In this document: in pieces, positions 15,937-22,621 of the stretch | How positions within the stretch are numbered: the first letter of the stretch is position 1 | How the letters are laid out: each line of letters opens with the position of its first letter | NCBI GenBank assembly: GCA_023398295.1 | Contig: JAEWSL010000010.1 | Span: 2,268-66,267, forward strand | From: Elusimicrobiota bacterium | GTDB lineage: Bacteria > Elusimicrobiota > Elusimicrobia > Elusimicrobiales > Elusimicrobiaceae | Direction: 5' to 3' | DNA: 64,000 nucleotides | Program-made: the position numbers and the translations under genes | The notes under the pieces: generated by a model | Told to the model about the DNA's origin: nothing | Seen by the model: only the letters and a program-made list of their open reading frames with translations | The model's database searches: none

Positions 15937-15975
15937 CAGTTTTATCCTCCGCCCCAAAAGGGCTTGTTTAAGCTT

Positions 15976-17391
15976 TTATCTGAGCACGTCGCCCAAAAGT
16001 TTTGTGTAAGACGACGGACGTTTAATCGTTTCCGGATCAATAATGGCGCAGCGTATCATCATAACCTCAAGCATATGCGTCAAAATATCATAGAAATTTT
16101 CCCTTATGGCGGGGGCAATGCCGACGCCGCTTGGGCCTAAAATAATCGCGCCTTTTAAGTTTTTATCGTCGCAGATATTGGCTATCTTAAAAGCCGCCGA
16201 AATAAGGTGATTCGTGGAGTAGGAGGATTTAAGCGTAAAGCGAAATCCGCCCTTTATGCCAAGCTCTTTGGCCCTCTCAATAATAGCAAAGGCAACCCAG
16301 TTTAACTTATCGGTATTATCCTGAGGGAAAAAGAAGCCGAAACGTCCCCAGTCAGTCCCCAGAGGGCGCGGAAGCGTCAGCACTTCTTTTACATCTTTGG
16401 TAACAATTTTGCTTCTGGAATCGTCGGTCATGCCGAGCATCTCCCCCAAAAGCTGGTCGTATCCGGGGGAGCTTACGCCGCTGTCAATTATCTTGCGGTT
16501 AAGCACTTTTACCCTGCGGATATTGCGCGCCACAGTGCCCAAATTTATGCCCGTCCCGCCGAAATAACTTTGCGTCTGCGTATCAGATAAACTGAGTTCG
16601 GCGTCAAAAACCATTTTGCTGTAAATCTTTGCAAGCCGCTGCGGACGCGGGGGTTTCATCTCCGATACCCAGCCCTGATCCAAACGGAAATTTACAAGCT
16701 CTTCAAAACGCGCCAGACTCTCGGGCGGATATTTGGAGGATATTATTATCTGCCTCTTCTCCTTCAAAAACCGGTTCAGAAGGTTTGAAATAAATTCCCT
16801 GTTATGATCGTTTACGGCGGTCAGATGTATATCGTCAATAATAAGCACTTCGGCATTATTAAAGAACTTTTCAAGTTTATCAATTTGCCCTTCTTCCACA
16901 AACCTCTGCACCCCGCGCGAAAAGCGCACGCCGTTTGTTATAAGTATGCGGTCCTGCGGCACTTTTTTGGAAAGGTCGTAACCCAAAGCGTTAAGAAAAT
17001 GGGTTTTGCCGGTGCCCGTATCGCCGTAGATAAAAAACGGGTTGTAAAGAGAACCTACGTTTTCACACAAAGACATCGCCGCCGCGTGAGAAAACCTGTT
17101 TGAGGCCATATCCATATTTTCAAAAGTAAATGTGGGGACAAGAGGAATTTCTATTGACCAGTTGTTTTTTTTGTAAACCTGCACGGCAGGGATATTTATA
17201 GTGTGGTCAAGGGAAGAATCCTCCGGCGTTTGGGCCGCGCGTTTTTCCTGATAGCGCTTGGGGCTTAGGGGCGTCGCCTTTTGCGGCGAAGACTGCTCTT
17301 GCTCAGGCCGCTTATCCTGCGGGGCCTGCTTCAACGCTTCACGCTGGGCGGTATAATCTACCATTTCATTTTCGTCATTATCTTGTATCAT
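15976..17391 (-). CDS. DnaA-type AAA+ ATPase paralog lacking DnaA domain IV, with an unrecognised C-terminal domain
   Basis: TFENMDMASNRFSHAAA, Walker A FIYGDTGTGKTHFLNALG, Walker B VLIIDDIHL, IIISSKYPPESL and MKPPRPQRLAKIY run parallel to DnaA/Hda domain III. There is no domain IV HTH. About 170 aa of unassigned sequence follow, and the N-terminal ~90 aa are disordered. AAGAGGA RBS. Confidence 0.7.
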   Translation of the reverse strand: MIQDNDENEMVDYTAQREALKQAPQDKRPEQEQSSPQKATPLSPKRYQEKRAAQTPEDSSLDHTINIPAVQVYKKNNWSIEIPLVPTFTFENMDMASNRFSHAAAMSLCENVGSLYNPFFIYGDTGTGKTHFLNALGYDLSKKVPQDRILITNGVRFSRGVQRFVEEGQIDKLEKFFNNAEVLIIDDIHLTAVNDHNREFISNLLNRFLKEKRQIIISSKYPPESLARFEELVNFRLDQGWVSEMKPPRPQRLAKIYSKMVFDAELSLSDTQTQSYFGGTGINLGTVARNIRRVKVLNRKIIDSGVSSPGYDQLLGEMLGMTDDSRSKIVTKDVKEVLTLPRPLGTDWGRFGFFFPQDNTDKLNWVAFAIIERAKELGIKGGFRFTLKSSYSTNHLISAAFKIANICDDKNLKGAIILGPSGVGIAPAIRENFYDILTHMLEVMMIRCAIIDPETIKRPSSYTKLLGDVLR

Positions 17392-17436
17392 ATATGTCCT
17401 CTTAACGCTTATTTTTCATTGCCGTCCAATTTTTAT

Positions 17437-20400
17437 TTAAGACTTTTCCCGCCCGCCTTGGCCTTCTTCTTCGTCATCATGGATTATAACCATTCTTCGC
17501 ACGCCAGATATCTTGCGCCGTTTTGGCGCGGCGGCGTTAAAAGCGGTTTGCGCAAGTTTCATGCTTTTGGCGTCGCTCAGCGGATTTACGTTTTGGGAAG
17601 CCTGCGGCCCTTTGGGCTTTATTGCCGCCCTAAAGTTTTCCGCCACTTTTTTGCCTATATTCTGCCTGAAATCCACTTGCGAAATGTCAGAGGTAATAAA
17701 AGTCCTCTCCGCAAGAAGCGGCTTTCCTACGGCGGTGTTCAAAGTAATAGCTTCCTCATCGCTGCGTCCTTCAAACTCCGAAAAAGGGTCCTTAGACGAA
17801 GCTGCTAAAACCGCGCCGGAGGGAGGAGGAGGAGGAGGTCCGAAAACGGTTTTCACGCTTAAGACATCTGTCATATCTTCCGAGCGTTTTTGTCTAAGAA
17901 ACTCTCTGGTAAGCTCGCCGAAACTTTGCAGGGAATCCTGCGTCTTACCTGCAGGCGGCCGCACGGGCTGTTGCTGCGGCTGCGGCTGCGGCGGCTGATA
18001 GGGCCTGTTCGCCGGATTATAGAAATTCATATTAGGCTGCGCGCCCTGTATAAAAGGATACTGAGGCGGCCCGCCCGCAGCCATAAAAGGCTGAGGCGCA
18101 GCTACCGACACAACCGGCGGCGGCGCGTAAGATAAAGGCACCGGCGCAATAGTGGCGTAAGCCAGCGGCGGCGTCGGCGCAGCGTAAAAGCCCTGGGCTA
18201 TACGCGTTAAAGCAGAAGGTTCTCTCCTCCTTGGCGGCAGAGGTTTAACAAAAACAGGCTTGTTTTGAGATTGGGGAAACTGCCTGCGCGGCAAAGAGTT
18301 ATCTTCCTTAGAAGAAAAATCGGAGATGCCCGGGGCTTTCTCCTGCCTTTGAGGGGGCAAAGACGGGCTTTCCCTTTTCTCTTGCCCATGCTCTTGAGAG
18401 AAAGATTCAATAACAGGAGGTTGCGCGCCTGTGTCCGAAACGCCGTTTTCGGACTGCTCTTCAAAAATTTTTCGCTCCGCCTCAGCGGGATTTGGCGCCG
18501 CTTCCGGTATAAAATCCTGCGGCGGTTTTGCGGAGTTTTGCGCCCCGTCTTGCCGCAATTCCTGTCCGTTTTCCTCTGTGTGTATATTTTGCTGAACTTC
18601 AGGCGTCATTTCGTTCAGCGGCACCGGCCGATGGGCGGGCGCATCCTGCGGACGCTCCTTTGAAAGAGGTCTGTGATCAAAAATAGGATCCGTATGCGCA
18701 ACCTCGGTAATAATGTTTTCTTTTTTTTGTTTGGAAACCGCTTCCGCCGCAAAAGGATCTTTGCCATGGGGATCTTTGTAAAATAAATTATCCGACAGAT
18801 TCGCTTTTGAGGAAATATCATTGTCCGCGCTAAAAGCGTTAAAGTCAACTATAGTTTGAGCGGCAAAAATATCTTCAATGGGCAAAGCCCCGCTTTCCGA
18901 AGCCGAAGTTTCCTCAAAAACATTATCCTGTAAAATAGACTGCCCCAGCTTGACTTGATTTGCCTCCACCCCTTTTATCGGGGAAGATTGTCCCTCCACC
19001 ACAATGCCGCGTTCAGCCTTACCCGCAGGCATGCTGAAAGGCTTTATCTGTACGGACTGAACATTTTGCATAGAAGGGGAGGCTGCCTGCTCCTCCATCT
19101 GGGAGAAAAGCGAATCTTGCGGAAGCTGTTTGACAAAAACTTCCCCCTTCTCCTGCGAGGACTGATTTTCTTGTTGTTCCGCAGAGGCGCTCTGCGCTTG
19201 AACCTGATTCTGTACCTTCGGCGGACGAATATGCTGCCGTACCGACTCAGAAGAAACCGTTTGCTGTGGTTGCTGTATCGGTTGCTGTATCGGCTGTTGT
19301 ACGGGTTGCTGCACAGGCGGCTGCACTTGCGCCTGAGGTTGTTGTATCGGCTGTTGCATCGGTTGTTGTACGGGTTGCTGCAGAGGCGGCTGCACTTGCG
19401 CCTGAGGTTGTTGTATCGGCTGTTGTACGGGTTGCTGTACAGGCTGCTGTACAGGCGGTTGTATATGTTGTTGAGGAGGTTGAAATTGTTGAACGTTAAA
19501 ATTTTGCGGGCCTGCGCTTTGCCACTGGGAACGTGCGGACGCAGATATCTTTACTTTTTGCGACGGCGCGGCTTTTTTTTGCTTGGGCGCGGAAGGCCGT
19601 ATAGCGTTAATTATTTTGGGTACTATATTTTTTATCTGTTCTTTTACCGGAGTGGAATAATATTCTCTTTTCCCGTCGGAGAAAATTTCAGTAGGCATTA
19701 CCTGCGGCGTAAACTCCGTAGTATTTGCCGCCGTCTGCGTTTGCTGCAATTGAGTGGGCGGGGGTGTATTCTGCGACGGCATTTGCGGCGGCATTTGCTG
19801 AAACTGCCCTCTTTGAGGCTGCTGTTGCTGCGGCTGCAAATAAGGCTGCACCTGCCCCTGAAACTGCTGAGGCGGCGCTGCTTGCTGAAACTGCTGAGGC
19901 GGAGCAAACTGCTGTTGCCCCTGGGGAGGTTGAACCTGAGACTGATACTGCCCAGCGTAAGGCTGAGGCGTTTGTCCCTGCGCAAAATGCTGCTGCCCTG
20001 GCGCCTGCATTTGCGGATAACCCTGAAAGGCGGCCGAAGACGGGGCGGGCCATTGCAGAGGAGTCTGCCCCTGCGGCATCTGCTGATATTGCTGGTTATA
20101 TCCCTGTGCAAAAACCTCCTGAGAGGTCTGTTCTTCCGGAGGGAATTTTGACATGTCCGGCGCTGTCGTCTGCGCCATTTTGCTGGGCATATGCGCGGAT
20201 TCGGCCTTTAAGTCGCCCGAAGCTGTTCTTGTAGAGAGATGTATAGGCACCGAAGAAGTGTCAAAAGTTTTTTTTGTCGTATTAAACTTATCAAAAATTT
20301 TGCTCATTAAACCTTTTGTCTGCGTTTGAGCGGAAACGCCGACGTCCTTCCCTTCAAAAGGCTGAGTCCAGCCCGTCCCGGTTCTGCTTCTTGCGTGCGG

Positions 20401-21165
20401 GTTTCTTATATCTACCGTGGGCATGTATCCGTAAGAATGCTCCGCCGCGCCGGACGCCGGCGCCGAAGGCGCCGCTTCCGATAAAATTTTAGGAGGGGAG
20501 GAAACCGCCCTTATATCAGCATCGTAAGGCGAAGGCCGTAAGGCGCCGTCTTCGGAATTAAGATCAATAAAAGTGCCGTCGCTTACGTCAAGGCTCGTTT
20601 CAATGTCAATAATGGTTTCTATATCGGCTAAATCTTTTTTGACTTCTAGCTGGCCTTCGGCCAAATTAAGATGAGAGGTTATTTCTTCCTTCTTATTTTG
20701 CCTGAGGGGAATTTGAGTTTGGGAAATTTTATCTTTTTCAATGCGGGCGACAGGCAGCTTTGTATCTTCGTGCGCGGCAGGCGCGTCGGCCTCCTCTCCA
20801 GACGGCGCTTTGCCGGAAAAACGCAAAGAAGGAGAATCAAAACTTAGCACTTCCCTTTTTGTTTTAAGCTCTGTGGCGGCAAGGAGGTCAAGCTCTTTTT
20901 CAATAGCGTCCGAGGAGGTAAAAACCTCCCCCTGGGAAACAAAATTTTCAACCTTGTTTCTTATTTCCTCAAGTTCGCCTTCTTCGGTAACATCGCGCAG
21001 TTCAAAAGTGTGGGTATAGGGCAATATGCGCCTGTCAACATAACTGCATAAAATGCCCATGTCCTGCTGGAGAAAAGCGGCGTCCTCCTCCGTACCCGAA
21101 ATAAGCAAAAGGTACTTGGAAGCGCCTGTTATAACATTTTCCCTGATTTCCCACTTAGTTATCAT
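17437..21165 (-). CDS. 1242-aa proline/glutamine-rich low-complexity protein (hypothetical)
   Basis: One uninterrupted ORF with a GGGGAAGAG RBS. A short, possibly folded N-terminus (MITKWEIRENVITGASKYLLLISG...) is followed by long P/Q/A/S-rich tracts and QQPX tandem repeats. No signal peptide or TM helix is evident. Confidence 0.8.
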   Translation of the reverse strand: MITKWEIRENVITGASKYLLLISGTEEDAAFLQQDMGILCSYVDRRILPYTHTFELRDVTEEGELEEIRNKVENFVSQGEVFTSSDAIEKELDLLAATELKTKREVLSFDSPSLRFSGKAPSGEEADAPAAHEDTKLPVARIEKDKISQTQIPLRQNKKEEITSHLNLAEGQLEVKKDLADIETIIDIETSLDVSDGTFIDLNSEDGALRPSPYDADIRAVSSPPKILSEAAPSAPASGAAEHSYGYMPTVDIRNPHARSRTGTGWTQPFEGKDVGVSAQTQTKGLMSKIFDKFNTTKKTFDTSSVPIHLSTRTASGDLKAESAHMPSKMAQTTAPDMSKFPPEEQTSQEVFAQGYNQQYQQMPQGQTPLQWPAPSSAAFQGYPQMQAPGQQHFAQGQTPQPYAGQYQSQVQPPQGQQQFAPPQQFQQAAPPQQFQGQVQPYLQPQQQQPQRGQFQQMPPQMPSQNTPPPTQLQQTQTAANTTEFTPQVMPTEIFSDGKREYYSTPVKEQIKNIVPKIINAIRPSAPKQKKAAPSQKVKISASARSQWQSAGPQNFNVQQFQPPQQHIQPPVQQPVQQPVQQPIQQPQAQVQPPLQQPVQQPMQQPIQQPQAQVQPPVQQPVQQPIQQPIQQPQQTVSSESVRQHIRPPKVQNQVQAQSASAEQQENQSSQEKGEVFVKQLPQDSLFSQMEEQAASPSMQNVQSVQIKPFSMPAGKAERGIVVEGQSSPIKGVEANQVKLGQSILQDNVFEETSASESGALPIEDIFAAQTIVDFNAFSADNDISSKANLSDNLFYKDPHGKDPFAAEAVSKQKKENIITEVAHTDPIFDHRPLSKERPQDAPAHRPVPLNEMTPEVQQNIHTEENGQELRQDGAQNSAKPPQDFIPEAAPNPAEAERKIFEEQSENGVSDTGAQPPVIESFSQEHGQEKRESPSLPPQRQEKAPGISDFSSKEDNSLPRRQFPQSQNKPVFVKPLPPRRREPSALTRIAQGFYAAPTPPLAYATIAPVPLSYAPPPVVSVAAPQPFMAAGGPPQYPFIQGAQPNMNFYNPANRPYQPPQPQPQQQPVRPPAGKTQDSLQSFGELTREFLRQKRSEDMTDVLSVKTVFGPPPPPPSGAVLAASSKDPFSEFEGRSDEEAITLNTAVGKPLLAERTFITSDISQVDFRQNIGKKVAENFRAAIKPKGPQASQNVNPLSDAKSMKLAQTAFNAAAPKRRKISGVRRMVIIHDDEEEGQGGREKS
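19261..19480 (-). repeat. in-frame tandem repeat (12-nt QQPX units organised in 69-nt higher-order units) inside the P/Q-rich gene
   Basis: GTACGGGTTGCTGCA[C/G]AGGCGGCTGCACTTGCGCCTGAGGTTGTTGTATCGGCTGTTG occurs at 19299 and again at 19368 (69-nt period). The surrounding sequence is reiterated GGTTGCTGTA[TC]-type 12-mers encoding QPVQQPVQQPIQQPQAQVQPP. Confidence 0.85.
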
Positions 21166-21211: not shown

Positions 21212-21859
21212 TTATCCCTCAACTATCTTAACGCCCGCACTTGTGCCCAGACGGCTTGCGCCGGCCTCTATCATGGCTTTTGCGTCTTCTTTGCTGCGCA
21301 CCCCGCCGGAAGCCTTCACTTTTATACCGCTTGCGCGCGCCATTAGCGCGACGTCCTGCGCGGTCGCGCCTTTATCGGAGAATCCCGTTGAAGTCTTAAC
21401 AAAATCAGCGCCTTGGCGCGCGGCTATTTTGCAGACTTCGGCTTTTTCCGCATCGCTAAGATACGATGTTTCAATTATAACTTTCAAAGTAAGTCCTTTG
21501 CACCGCTCTCTTACGGCTTTAATATCTTCGGCTACGGCAACAAAATTCCCGTCTTTAAGCGCGCCGATATTGATAACCATATCTATCTCCTGCGCGCCGT
21601 CGGAAACTGCTTTTTGGGTTTCAAAAGCCTTTGTTTCGGAAGCGTTTGCGCCTAAAGGGAACCCTATCACGGTACACACCTTAACGCCGCTTCCTCTTAA
21701 AAGCTTCGCGGCAAAAGACACCCAGCAAGGATTTATGCATACCGACGCAAAATGATGAGATAACGCCTCCTGGCAAACTTTTGCTATGTCTTCTTTCTTT
21801 GCAAAAGCTTTCAGGACGGTATGGTCAATATAGCGAGCCAGATTTTCTTTAGTTTCCAT
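21212..21859 (-). CDS. deoC: deoxyribose-phosphate aldolase
   Basis: [31 protein letters not shown], the Schiff-base Lys context [10 protein letters not shown], and KASGGVR. Confidence 0.95.
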
Positions 21860-21868
21860 AGAAACCTC

Positions 21869-22621
21869 TTATTTGTAATTTATTATTCTTGCAAAACTCT
21901 CCGCCGAGAGGGATTGCCCGCCCACCAAAACGCCGTCAATATCGGGCTGGGCCATAAGAGAATCCACATTGTCCGTCTTAACGCTGCCGCCGTAAAGTAT
22001 CCTGATGTTTTGAGAGAAAGTTTCGTAATATTTATTATGCAGAAGTTCGCGGATATCCGCATGCACCTGCTGCGCCTGCTGAGGAGTAGCCGTTTTGCCG
22101 GTGCCTATGGCCCAAACGGGTTCGTAAGCAATAACCATATCTTTTAGCTCCTGCGCGCTGAAACCTTTTAAGCCGCCTTCAATTTGATTTTGTATAACGC
22201 TGTAGGTTTTATTAAGTTCGCGCTCGGTCAAAGTTTCGCCGACGCAAAAAACTACCTGAAGGCCGGCTGACAGCGCGGCGCGCAATTTTTTATTAAGAAT
22301 TTCATTTGTATCGCCGAAAAGAGCCCTTCTTTCGCTGTGCCCTAAAATTACGCCCGCCGCGCCCGCGTCTTTAATCTGGTTGGGAGCAATCTGGGAGGTA
22401 AAAGCGCCTTTCTCTTCGTAAAAGCAATCCTGCGCAAAAACTTTAACCGCGCTTCCTTTGACCGCCTGCGCGACAGCCGCCAAAGCGGTAAAGGAGGGCG
22501 CTATCATTATATCGGCGTTATTTTTATTTTCCGCCGCGGCCACCGCAGAGGCTAAAGAAGAAGATTGTTCTATGGTATTATGCATTTTCCAATTACCGGC
22601 AATAAAAGATTTTCTAGTCAT
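21869..22621 (-). CDS. tpiA: triose-phosphate isomerase
   Basis: IAGNWKMH, GHSERR and the active-site motif AYEPVWAIGTGKTAT. 250 aa. Confidence 0.95.
   Translation of the reverse strand: MTRKSFIAGNWKMHNTIEQSSSLASAVAAAENKNNADIMIAPSFTALAAVAQAVKGSAVKVFAQDCFYEEKGAFTSQIAPNQIKDAGAAGVILGHSERRALFGDTNEILNKKLRAALSAGLQVVFCVGETLTERELNKTYSVIQNQIEGGLKGFSAQELKDMVIAYEPVWAIGTGKTATPQQAQQVHADIRELLHNKYYETFSQNIRILYGGSVKTDNVDSLMAQPDIDGVLVGGQSLSAESFARIINYK

What the first reader, a model, noticed from the sequence alone, without database searches (positions are those of the whole stretch)
15976..17391. DnaA/Hda-clade AAA+ protein with domain IV replaced by an unassigned ~170-aa C-terminal domain
Residues ~95-300 run parallel to DnaA domain III. 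TFENMDMASNRFSHAAA is box-like, FIYGDTGTGKTHF is Walker A, LIIDDIHL is Walker B, IIISSKYPPESL is the sensor I region, and MKPPRPQRLAKIY is the lid. The helix-turn-helix DnaA-box-binding domain is absent. In its place is a C-terminal segment (…GTDWGRFGFFFPQDNTDKLNWVAFAIIERAKELGIKGGFRFTLK…KGAIILGPSGVGIAPAIRENFYDILTHMLEVMMIRCAIIDPE…) that I cannot assign. The N-terminal ~90 aa are charged and disordered rather than forming DnaA domain I. It is not near dnaN, and I saw no cluster of TTATCCACA-type boxes nearby, so it is probably not the replication initiator. It may be an Hda-like regulator, or a repurposed ATP switch working with the neighbouring P/Q-rich protein.
Basis: partly seen in the sequence, partly recalled or inferred. 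Interest (0 to 1): 0.65.

Follow-up and report, generated by a model that had tools for sequence, protein, structure and literature searches.

The report
Split DnaA-derived ATPase of Elusimicrobia
This gene is the back half of a protein found only in the phylum Elusimicrobiota: a copy of the replication initiator DnaA's ATP-binding engine that has lost its DNA-reading domain, gained two new domains and a very long floppy linker, and in this organism has been split into two adjacent genes; its function is unknown and uncharacterised.

Summary
ORF 15976-17391(-) encodes 471 aa with a complete DnaA domain III (Pfam Bac_DnaA 7.5e-33; profile vs B. subtilis DnaA 102-346, E 3.6e-46), no domain IV, and a confidently folded 125-aa alpha/beta C-terminal domain with no specific relative.

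The main new finding is that the P/Q-rich neighbour (17437-21165) is the detached N-terminal part of the same protein. In 66 of 87 related loci a single ORF of 860-1625 aa carries N-domain, P/Q linker, DnaA-type AAA+ and C-domain. Here two stops and a conserved Shine-Dalgarno site separate the halves. Both halves are under purifying selection (dN/dS 0.03-0.17).

All named members of the family are Elusimicrobiota, and it sits at a fixed locus. Its C-domain occurs nowhere else (199 of 1.84 billion cluster representatives, always C-terminal). Walker A/B and sensor I are invariant. The arginine finger varies (K/R/Q/S), the sensor II arginine is absent, and there is no clamp-binding motif.

It is therefore neither the initiator, nor Hda, nor a DnaC/IstB loader. 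I read it as a tethered ATP-binding assembly switch. Function is inferred, not shown. Coexistence with a canonical dnaA rests on literature only.

The parts
15976..17391 (-). ORF2, 471 aa: the C-terminal half of the family protein (short disordered tail, DnaA-type AAA+ domain III, new alpha/beta C-domain)
   Evidence: dN/dS against the 93%-identical relative is 0.062.
17167..17391 (-). Residues 1-75 of ORF2: disordered, charged remnant of the linker
   Evidence: pLDDT below 50. dN/dS 0.23. Poorly aligned across the family.
16654..17136 (-). Residues 86-246: AAA+ alpha/beta subdomain (DnaA IIIa), with a two-helix insert (H154-166, H170-178) at the place of the initiator-specific motif
   Evidence: PF00308 E 7.5e-33. 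Secondary structure. Foldseek TM 0.78-0.80 to DnaA domain III structures 8bv3 and 2z4r.
17002..17025 (-). Walker A, G123-D-T-G-T-G-K129-T130
   Evidence: K129 is conserved in 249 of 255 non-redundant cores.
16825..16848 (-). Walker B region, residues 182-189 (VLIIDDIH; acidic pair D186/D187)
   Evidence: D186 in 253 and D187 in 252 of 255 cores.
16432..16653 (-). Residues 247-320: helical lid (DnaA IIIb). The sensor II arginine position is Gly285. R293 is conserved.
   Evidence: Alignment to B. subtilis DnaA. Residue frequencies (G285: G 137 / S 49; R293: 227 of 255).
15979..16359 (-). Residues 345-471: family-specific C-domain, a (beta-alpha)x4 three-layer sandwich that replaces DnaA domain IV
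   Evidence: pLDDT 93. Only generic fold matches. No PDB or Pfam sequence match. Found in 199 of 1.84e9 cluster representatives and always C-terminal. dN/dS 0.042.
17392..17436 (-). 45-nt junction between the two halves. Both ORFs are in the same frame. ORF1 ends with TAA (17437-17439), a second in-frame stop (TGA) follows, and a Shine-Dalgarno AAGAGGA (17398-17404) lies 6 nt before the ATG.
   Evidence: The same GCGTTAAGAGGA-ATG context is kept in relative L001 although the upstream ORF tail differs. No terminator-like site in the junction.
17437..21165 (-). ORF1, 1242 aa: the detached N-terminal half (N-domain plus P/Q-rich linker; Q 13%, P 11% overall; Q 29%, P 15% in residues 331-720)
   Evidence: Residues 1-113 up to 1-300 align to the N-termini of fused homologs at E 1e-19 to 1e-24. 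dN/dS 0.17.
20935..21165 (-). Residues 1-77 of ORF1: family-specific N-domain (MIxxWEI...LLIxG..D...KKLG...)
   Evidence: Family N-domain HMM positions 1-74, E 1.7e-5. BLASTP to fused member P0026, E 4e-9. Alignment A4. dN/dS 0.042. No relation to DnaA domain I (hhalign probability 0.4%).
19264..19458 (-). 69-nt tandem repeat (2.8 copies) encoding the QPVQQP... units of the linker

Best explanation
WHAT IT IS (shown). ORF2 is the C-terminal half of a DnaA-derived four-module protein whose named members are all Elusimicrobiota. The modules are a novel N-domain of about 75 aa, a hypervariable P/Q-rich disordered linker (about 100 to over 2000 aa), a complete DnaA-type AAA+ domain III, and a novel flavodoxin-like C-domain of about 125 aa in place of the DNA-binding domain IV. 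In this organism and its closest relative the gene has undergone fission. ORF1 (17437-21165) keeps the N-domain and linker. ORF2 has its own ribosome-binding site. Both are kept by purifying selection.

HOW IT MOST LIKELY WORKS (inferred). It cannot read DnaA boxes and is not the initiator. Walker A, Walker B and sensor I are invariant, so it binds ATP. The sensor II arginine is missing and the arginine finger is not conserved. Hydrolysis is therefore probably slow or partner-dependent, so the nucleotide would act as a conformational or assembly switch rather than as fuel. The two-helix insert at the initiator-specific-motif position is retained and the box VII face is strongly conserved (E230, G240, W241, K246). 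This argues for head-to-tail assembly with itself or with another DnaA-type module. The C-domain has only hydrophobic or structural invariant residues, and a distant paralog of it sits in the adjacent gene of deep lineages. I read it as a protein-protein docking or oligomerisation module. The N-domain, joined by (or here separated from) a long flexible spacer, would target the assembly to a second site.

NET. It is a tethered ATP-gated assembly or adaptor protein, most plausibly acting on chromosome or DNA transactions.
For: Architecture and fission:
- 66 of 87 loci encode one ORF of 860-1625 aa with all four modules.
- ORF1 and ORF2 map to the N- and C-termini of the same fused ORFs.
- The junction has two stops plus a Shine-Dalgarno site, and that site is conserved in L001.
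- dN/dS values: AAA+ 0.029, C-domain 0.042, N-domain 0.042, linker 0.14-0.19, neighbouring housekeeping genes 0.03-0.07.

DnaA origin.

No domain IV:
- All 98 family hits to a canonical DnaA HMM end at about position 300 of 450.
- None of the 54 distant members matched PF08299, while 53 of 54 carry PF00308.

Motif statistics.

C-domain:
- Exclusive to the family.
- Generic alpha/beta/alpha fold only.
- Paralogous C-domain in the adjacent gene: hhalign score 30.65 over 117 columns, against nulls of 11.7 +/- 2.2 and 13.5 +/- 2.1 (maximum 18.7).

Fixed chromosomal locus next to comM-dprA-topA-xerC across the phylum.
Against: - No experiment or interaction prediction supports any particular partner or DNA binding.
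- Synteny may simply be an inherited gene order in compact, co-directional genomes. The flanking genes are functionally mixed (sugar-phosphate microcompartment or tpiA-deoC upstream, envelope lipoproteins downstream).
- In this particular protein the arginine-finger position is Arg (R236), and 65% of members have K or R there, so trans-hydrolysis cannot be excluded.
- R289 (R in 180 of 255 cores) lies one helical turn after the missing sensor II arginine and might substitute for it.
- After the fission there is no evidence for how, or whether, the two halves still associate.
- Coexistence with a canonical dnaA in the same genome rests on literature, not on a direct test.
Confidence: 0.55

Rival explanations
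1. It regulates replication initiation by co-assembling with the canonical DnaA. Its DnaA-type module would dock onto the end of the DnaA-ATP filament at oriC and cap or stabilise it. The C-domain and the tethered N-domain would recruit or sequester other factors.
For: - It is the closest structural and sequence relative of DnaA domain III.
- The ATP site is intact but the arginine finger and sensor II are degenerate. This is what a one-sided filament cap would look like.
- Elusimicrobia use the DnaA/DciA pathway.
Against: - It is not located near dnaA, dnaN or oriC.
- No interaction data exist.
- The giant hypervariable linker and the N-domain have no obvious role in such a model.
- This is a special case of the best explanation rather than a true alternative.
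Confidence: 0.2
2. It is an Hda-type inactivator of DnaA (RIDA). In that model, loaded on the beta-clamp, it would insert an arginine finger into DnaA-ATP and trigger hydrolysis.
For: - Like Hda, it is a DnaA domain III without domain IV.
- Hda structures are the second-best Foldseek class (3bos, 5x06; E 1e-6 to 1e-8).
- The query itself has Arg at the finger position.
Against: - TIGR03420 scores 45 bits against a cut-off of 195.
- 0 of 87 ORFs carry a QL[SD]LF motif.
- The finger position is K/R/Q/S across the family.
- The architecture is four to seven times larger than Hda.
Confidence: 0.05
3. It is a microcompartment-associated organiser. Together with the neighbouring 'second family' protein (N-terminal amphipathic helix, P-rich linker, paralogous C-domain), it would scaffold or position the sugar-phosphate-utilising (SPU) bacterial microcompartment, by analogy with ATPase/adaptor pairs such as McdA/McdB.
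For: - In 4 of 6 deep-lineage loci the gene directly follows an SPU-type BMC operon with BMC-H, EutN, PTAC, aldehyde dehydrogenase, RpiB and DeoC.
- Literature reports SPU loci in Elusimicrobia.
- The second family begins with an encapsulation-peptide-like helix (SILSDLDSILTG) followed by a P-rich linker, and it shares the C-domain.
- The best structural hit of the C-domain is lumazine synthase, a cage-former, though that match is generic.
Against: - The family is retained, under strong purifying selection, in all Elusimicrobiales loci. Those loci have no shell genes within 10 kb on either side, and this 64-kb window has none.
- The second family is absent from those loci.
- L005 and L089 have the second family but no adjacent shell genes.
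- The resemblance to an encapsulation peptide is judged by eye only.
Confidence: 0.1
4. The split gene is a decaying pseudogene and ORF2 is a non-functional remnant.
For: - Two in-frame stops separate the halves.
- Frameshift-split versions occur in other genomes: L007, L075 and L084.
Against: - dN/dS is 0.029 (AAA+), 0.042 (C-domain) and 0.042 (N-domain), equal to the neighbouring housekeeping genes.
- A 1242-codon frame stays open.
- A Shine-Dalgarno site plus ATG is conserved in two independent assemblies with different junction frames.
Confidence: 0.03
5. It is the actual (non-canonical) replication initiator, or alternatively a DnaC/IstB-type helicase loader from a mobile element.
For: - It is the only DnaA-like gene in the window.
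- The canonical dnaA is a pseudogene in one Elusimicrobia endosymbiont.
- There are weak IstB and DnaI profile hits.
Against: - It has no DNA-box-binding domain, and no oriC features or dnaN nearby.
- In the DciA study, E. minutum Pei191 has no DnaC/DnaI and its DciA is Emin_0004, and dciA in Elusimicrobia is reported to lie in or next to the dnaA-dnaN-recF-gyrB-gyrA replication operon.
- IstB scores 28.6 bits against 114 for DnaA.
- No transposase lies nearby and the locus is fixed in 59 of 83 genomes.
Confidence: 0.03

Closest known systems
DnaA, bacterial chromosomal replication initiator (domain III; Pfam PF00308, TIGR00362)
   Same: - Complete AAA+ domain III including the N-terminal NRFAHAAA box, Walker A GxxGxGKT/SH, Walker B DD, sensor I Ser, the two-helix insert at the ISM position, and the lid.
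- Profile E 3.6e-46 to B. subtilis DnaA residues 102-346.
- Foldseek TM 0.78-0.80 to domain III structures.
- The overall logic is the same: a small N-domain, then a flexible linker, then the AAA+ module.
   Different: - No domain IV (helix-turn-helix). A (beta-alpha)x4 domain takes its place.
- The N-domain is unrelated to domain I (hhalign probability 0.4%).
- The linker is expanded to as much as about 2000 aa and is P/Q-rich.
- The R281 equivalent is Leu or Ala, the R285 equivalent varies, and the sensor II Arg equivalent is Gly or Ser.
- The family has its own invariant residues, K246 and N197.
- It is not next to dnaN or oriC.
- It scores below the equivalog cut-off (141 against 344 bits).
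Hda / HdaA (DnaA-related inactivator, TIGR03420)
   Same: A DnaA-domain-III-like AAA+ protein without domain IV. Hda structures are the second-best structural class.
   Different: - No clamp-binding motif.
- The arginine finger is not conserved.
- It has extra N- and C-domains and a giant linker.
- It scores 45 bits against a cut-off of 195.
- The sequence is much closer to DnaA proper than to Hda.
DnaC / DnaI / IstB (initiator-clade helicase loaders and IS21 helper ATPases)
   Same: It belongs to the same AAA+ initiator clade, and weak profile and fold matches cover the P-loop core.
   Different: - Scores are three to five times lower than for DnaA.
- There is no helicase-binding N-domain.
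- There is no mobile-element context.
- Elusimicrobia are reported to use DciA, not DnaC/DnaI.
Proteins with long P/Q-rich spacers between a targeting module and a working module (FtsK linker, ZipA, DnaA domain II). This is an analogy from general knowledge and was not tested here.
   Same: A hypervariable, repeat-prone, disordered P/Q-rich spacer joins a small terminal domain to a nucleotide-binding or binding module.
   Different: No membrane anchor is detectable. The working module is DnaA-type AAA+, not RecA-type. No homology is implied.

Membership tests
DnaA (replication initiator) | AAA+ domain III of DnaA type | tested here: met
   PF00308 at E 7.5e-33. PDB profile E 3.6e-46 to DnaA residues 102-346. 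Foldseek TM 0.78-0.80.
DnaA (replication initiator) | C-terminal helix-turn-helix domain IV (PF08299) that binds DnaA boxes | tested here: not met
   No PF08299 hit in the query, nor among the family hits or the 54 distant members. Matches to a canonical DnaA HMM stop at about position 300 of 450. The C-terminus is a beta-alpha-beta fold.
DnaA (replication initiator) | N-terminal domain I (PF11638) | tested here: not met
   Residues 1-75 of the query are disordered. The family N-domain against DnaA domain I gives hhalign probability 0.4%. No Pfam hit at E up to 10.
DnaA (replication initiator) | Box VII arginines (E. coli R281, R285) and the sensor II arginine (R334) | tested here: not met
   The R281 equivalent is L 146 / A 61. 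The R285 equivalent is K 95 / R 72 / Q 33 / S 33 (Arg in the query). The R334 equivalent is G 137 / S 49. Equivalences rest on the HMM alignment to B. subtilis DnaA, not on a structural superposition.
DnaA (replication initiator) | Curated equivalog score and dnaA-dnaN/oriC context | tested here: not met
   TIGR00362 scores 141.5 bits against a cut-off of 343.9. No DnaA-box cluster. No gene matching a dnaN Pfam family among the called genes within 10 kb in relatives.
Hda | N-terminal beta-clamp-binding motif QL[SD]LF | tested here: not met
   0 of 87 family ORFs carry the motif. A loose version appears in 2 of 87, at inconsistent positions.
Hda | Conserved arginine finger needed to stimulate DnaA-ATP hydrolysis | tested here: not met
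   The position varies across 255 cores.
Hda | Curated equivalog score; single-domain protein of about 230 aa | tested here: not met
   TIGR03420 scores 45.3 bits against a cut-off of 194.8. Family ORFs are 860-1625 aa.
DnaC/DnaI/IstB | AAA+ core best matched by loader or IstB profiles | tested here: not met
   IstB 28.6 bits against 114.4 for DnaA. DnaI 37.8 bits and DnaC 20.8 bits. PDB DnaI E 9e-7 against 3.6e-46 for DnaA.
DnaC/DnaI/IstB | Mobile-element (IstA transposase) or primosome context | tested here: not met
   Fixed locus tpiA-deoC-FAM-lipoprotein-comM-dprA-topA-xerC in 59 of 83 genomes. No gene matching a transposase Pfam family among the called genes around the family gene in the loci examined.
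Anti-phage defence systems (PADLOC) | Match to a defence-system protein model | tested here: not met
   Only P-loop-level hits (mad8, 29 bits over 35 residues) and a low-complexity hit.
New Elusimicrobiota four-module family (defined here) | N-domain, then P/Q linker, then DnaA-type AAA+, then C-domain, in that order | tested here: met
   All four modules are present and colinear with fused homologs, but here they are spread over two adjacent ORFs.

The most novel reading that the evidence does not exclude
The family would be a previously unrecognised class of DnaA-derived cellular organiser. In this reading it is an ATP-gated, self-assembling module tethered by a length-tunable disordered spacer. 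Together with a paralogous-C-domain partner in deep lineages, it would position or anchor a large structure, either the chromosome or nucleoid, or the SPU microcompartment it sits next to. In lineages where canonical dnaA decays (Endomicrobium endosymbionts) it might even take over part of initiation control.
Probability: 0.12. Interest if true: 0.85.

Novelty: new variant of a known kind. Interest (0 to 1): 0.55.

Why it matters
DnaA domain III is one of the most conserved machines in bacteria. Well-understood derivatives of it are few (Hda, and the related DnaC/IstB loaders).

This derivative has four unusual properties:
- It is phylum-wide and single-copy at a fixed locus.
- It is under strong selection.
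- It keeps the ATP site but has swapped the DNA-reading domain for a new fold.
- It has acquired a new N-domain and a linker of up to about 2000 residues.

It therefore shows that the initiator module has been re-used for something other than reading oriC. It gives replication and AAA+ specialists a natural 'domain-swap' experiment.

The natural fission in this genome also yields a compact 471-aa AAA+ plus C-domain protein that should be easy to express and test.

Practically, public annotation calls these proteins 'chromosomal replication initiator protein', 'DnaA/Hda family protein' or 'ATP-binding protein'. The first of these names is wrong, and gene callers often truncate the long form.

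Tried and rejected
- **Stop-codon read-through or recoding at the junction.** Rejected: there are two different in-frame stops (TAA, TGA) plus a conserved Shine-Dalgarno site and ATG.
- **N-domain as a diverged DnaA domain I.** Rejected: hhalign probability 0.4%. There are no PDB or Pfam sequence matches.
- **C-domain as a receiver domain fed by the adjacent GAF histidine kinase of deep lineages.** Rejected: there are no conserved acidic residues at the beta1 or beta3 ends. The invariant residues are P356, Y391, F401, G419 and P420. CheY-type structures are not among the Foldseek hits.
- **C-domain as a specific homolog of lumazine synthase or the Argonaute MID domain.** Not supported: E is about 1e-4, TM is 0.55-0.67 and identity is 8-18%. 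This is a generic three-layer alpha/beta/alpha similarity.
- **Paralogy of the upstream protein's C-terminus.** The first tests were negative. A plain HMM search found nothing, and hhalign with four sequences gave probability 0.5%. The test became significant only with 48 homologs and shuffle controls.
- **Direct proof of a canonical dnaA in the same genomes.** This failed:
  - The best canonical DnaA hits belong to other phyla.
  - No locus contains one within 10 kb on either side.
  - The E. minutum and Rs-D17 genome papers are not held.
- **Profile search to obtain source names for Endomicrobiia members.** It returned only unnamed gut Elusimicrobiaceae proteins.
- **Defence-system membership.** Rejected.
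Full report
**1. The observation**

The ORF is real: 15976..17391 on the minus strand, 471 aa.

- Pfam places Bac_DnaA (PF00308) on residues 86-242 at E 7.5e-33. It finds neither domain IV (PF08299) nor domain I (PF11638).
- NCBIfam's DnaA equivalog matches only profile positions 93-291 of 437 and scores 141.5 bits, below its cut-off of 343.9. Hda (45 bits), IstB (45), DnaI (38) and DnaC (21) score far lower.
- A profile built from 34 family members aligns to B. subtilis DnaA residues 102-346, which is the whole of domain III with its lid, at E 3.6e-46. It finds nothing for the C-terminal part.
- AlphaFold2 with the family alignment gives pLDDT 83 and pTM 0.77. Residues 1-75 are disordered. 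The model has a DnaA-like AAA+ fold with a two-helix insert after beta2 and a helical lid. The C-terminal unit is (beta-alpha)x4 at residues 347-469.
- Foldseek ranks DnaA domain III structures first (TM 0.78-0.80), then Hda, then DnaI/DnaC/IstB.

The only correction is that the folded C-domain is about 125 aa after a connector of about 40 aa.

**2. The neighbour is the other half of the same protein**

In the family alignment many members begin with a conserved domain of about 75 aa (MIxxWEI...LLIxG..D...KKLG..C.RP) followed by a proline-rich spacer. The upstream 1242-aa P/Q-rich ORF (17437..21165) begins MITKWEIRENV....

- Its first 60 residues align to fused member P0026 at E 4e-9.
- The family N-domain HMM matches it end to end at E 1.7e-5.
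- In the 87 loci held at that point, 66 encode one uninterrupted ORF of 860-1625 aa carrying N-domain, linker, AAA+ and C-domain. Five are split. Sixteen are truncated or have an N-domain below threshold.
- BLASTP maps ORF1 residues 1-113 up to 1-300 onto the N-terminus, and ORF2 residues 37-471 onto the C-terminus (64-66% identity), of the same fused ORFs.

At the junction the two ORFs are in the same frame. They are separated by TAA, a second in-frame TGA, and a Shine-Dalgarno AAGAGGA 6 nt before the ATG. The closest relative (93% identity, an independent assembly) keeps the same GCGTTAAGAGGA-ATG context. There the upstream ORF ends in a different frame. No terminator-like site lies between the ORFs.

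dN/dS between the two relatives:

| Region | dN/dS |
|---|---|
| AAA+ module | 0.029 |
| C-domain | 0.042 |
| N-domain | 0.042 |
| Linker | 0.14-0.19 |
| Neighbours deoC, comM, lipoprotein | 0.03-0.07 |

The fission is therefore real and both products are maintained. It is neither a sequencing artefact nor a pseudogene.

**3. Distribution**

- Homologs that share the C-domain come almost only from Elusimicrobiota MAGs and isolates. These include the complete genomes of Parelusimicrobium proximum Dip518 and Elusimicrobium posterum Dip510.
- An exhaustive HMMER search with the C-domain profile finds 199 cluster representatives among 1.84 billion. In every listed case the domain sits at the extreme C-terminus.
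- 53 of 54 distant holders also carry PF00308, and none matched PF08299.
- The canonical DnaAs that turn up as weak hits belong to other phyla.

**4. Modules**

*N-domain.* It has no Pfam or PDB sequence match. It is not related to DnaA domain I (hhalign probability 0.4%).

*Linker.*
- Composition is Q 29% and P 15% in ORF1 residues 331-720.
- It contains a 69-nt tandem repeat.
- Its length runs from about 100 aa in deep lineages to more than 2000 aa in P0169.
- A block of proteins with near-equal scores (about 771-773 bits) ranges from 1192 to 1271 aa, which I take as strain-level length variation.

*AAA+ module*, over 255 non-redundant cores:

| Position | Residues found |
|---|---|
| Walker A K129 | K 249 |
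| Walker B D186 / D187 | D 253 / D 252 |
| Sensor I S219 | S 249 |
| E. coli R281 equivalent (L232) | L 146 / A 61 |
| E. coli R285 arginine-finger equivalent (R236) | K 95 / R 72 / Q 33 / S 33 |
| Sensor II R334 equivalent (G285) | G 137 / S 49 |
| Family-specific near-invariants | N197, E230, G240, W241, K246, R293 |

*C-domain.* Modelled alone it reaches pLDDT 93. It resembles only generic three-layer alpha/beta/alpha folds: lumazine synthase, the Argonaute MID domain and PTS IIB, with E about 1e-4 and TM 0.55-0.67. Its invariant residues (P356, Y391, F401, G419, P420) are structural rather than catalytic.

**5. Context**

In Elusimicrobiales the order tpiA-deoC-FAM-lipoprotein(about 370 aa)-comM-dprA-topA-xerC-ROK is found complete in 59 of 83 loci.

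Deep lineages keep the order FAM...comM...dprA-topA(-xerC) but differ around it:
- In four of six loci an SPU-type microcompartment operon (BMC-H, EutN, PTAC, aldehyde dehydrogenase, RpiB, DeoC) lies upstream. Literature reports this locus type in Elusimicrobia.
- A GAF histidine kinase lies immediately downstream in three lineages.
- LPP20-like, GNA1162-like and CsgG-like lipoprotein genes follow.
- Directly upstream of FAM in four lineages (L005, L007, L088, L089) is a 'second family' protein. It has a short amphipathic N-terminal helix, a P-rich linker and a C-terminal alpha/beta domain of about 120 aa. In L007, L088 and L089 a T2SSE-type ATPase gene precedes it.

The second family has 48 homologs. 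All the named ones are Elusimicrobiota and none has a Pfam domain. Its C-terminal domain is a distant paralog of the FAM C-domain. The hhalign score is 30.65 over 117 colinear columns. The reversed control scores 10.7, column shuffles give 11.7 +/- 2.2 and block shuffles give 13.5 +/- 2.1, with a maximum of 18.7.

Neither the second family nor any BMC shell gene is present in the window or in the Elusimicrobiales loci.

**6. What it is not**

- *Not the initiator.* It has no domain IV, no DnaA-box cluster and no dnaN context. The DciA study places the Elusimicrobia dciA in or beside the dnaA-dnaN-recF-gyrB-gyrA operon. For E. minutum Pei191 it lists DciA = Emin_0004 and no DnaC/DnaI. This last point is indirect. 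I could not scan a whole genome for a canonical dnaA.
- *Not Hda.* 0 of 87 ORFs carry a clamp-binding motif. The arginine finger is not conserved, the profile score is sub-threshold and the architecture is different.
- *Not DnaC/IstB.* Scores are three to five times lower than for DnaA, and the gene sits at a fixed chromosomal locus with no transposase.
- *Not a defence system*.

**7. Mechanism (inference)**

The invariant ATP site combined with a missing sensor II arginine and a variable finger suggests an ATP-bound switch rather than a motor. The retained two-helix insert and the strongly conserved box VII face suggest head-to-tail assembly, either with itself or with DnaA. The C-domain has structural invariants only and has a paralog in the adjacent gene. 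It is best read as a docking or oligomerisation module that took the place of DNA-box recognition. The N-domain on a long, length-variable spacer looks like a remote targeting module. The natural fission shows that covalent linkage is dispensable.

I put 0.55 on this overall reading: high for identity and architecture, low to moderate for mechanism. The rival readings are listed in their own section.

**8. Novelty**

I found no paper that describes this family. Databases label members 'ATP-binding protein', 'DnaA/Hda family protein', 'hypothetical protein' or, wrongly, 'chromosomal replication initiator protein'. It is a new architectural variant of a known kind, the DnaA-derived AAA+ proteins.

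Noticed in passing
L088:1149-7870, L091:3029-9644, L007:1504-6882, L090:720-1019: In deep Elusimicrobiota lineages the block directly upstream of the family gene is an SPU-type bacterial microcompartment operon (tpiA, PTAC, BMC-H, EutN, aldehyde dehydrogenase, RpiB, DeoC). The window's tpiA-deoC pair (21212-22621) looks like the remnant left after the shell genes were lost.
   Followed up: partly
L088:9225-9998, L007:8291-9346, L089:9483-10004, L005:8083-9993: A second Elusimicrobiota-only protein family lies immediately upstream of the DnaA-like gene in deep lineages. It has an N-terminal amphipathic helix (SILSDLDSILTG, reminiscent of a microcompartment encapsulation peptide), a P-rich linker, and a C-terminal domain that is a distant paralog of the C-domain studied here. 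It is absent from the window.
   Followed up: partly
window 17437-21165 and proteins P0279-P0367: The P/Q-rich linker varies in length between strains. A block of family proteins with nearly identical scores ranges from 1192 to 1271 aa. The window's linker contains a 69-nt tandem repeat at 19264-19458. Across the family the linker spans about 100 to more than 2000 aa (P0169 is 2568 aa in total).
   Followed up: partly
L075:7428-11248 (Elusimicrobium posterum Dip510 complete genome), L084:5579-9576, L007:9324-11176: In three other genomes the long gene is interrupted by a frameshift inside the repetitive linker. It is unclear whether these are sequencing errors in low-complexity DNA or further independent fissions.
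   Followed up: no
window, whole 64 kb: One-mismatch matches to the DnaA box TTATCCACA number 19, against 8.7 +/- 3.0 expected, and no shuffle out of 100 reached 19. They are scattered, none is perfect, and there is no cluster.
   Followed up: no
literature (PMC5174739), not in the window: The canonical dnaA is reported as a pseudogene in both genomovars of the endosymbiont 'Ca. Endomicrobium trichonymphae' (phylum Elusimicrobia). Whether that lineage keeps the DnaA-derived family described here could not be checked.
   Followed up: no
window 15957-15976; compare L004:12442-12891: 57 related loci have a lipoprotein gene of about 150 aa (LPP20-like by eye) between the family gene and the lipoprotein gene of about 370 aa, often with 4-nt overlaps. 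The window and its closest relative lack it, and the 374-aa lipoprotein gene follows after 18 nt.
   Followed up: partly
L005:11823-13823, L007:11182-13155, L088:11548-12915: In deep lineages a cytoplasmic GAF-HisKA-HATPase histidine kinase gene follows the family gene within 2-4 nt or overlaps it, which suggests translational coupling. No response regulator was seen nearby, and no kinase gene follows the family gene in the window.
   Followed up: no
window 18955-20151 (+), 19725-20234 (+), 19688-20111 (-): Long 'ORFs' on the opposite strand and in other frames across the P/Q repeat region (up to 398 aa, rich in L/R) are shadow ORFs of the low-complexity coding sequence, not genes.
   Followed up: no
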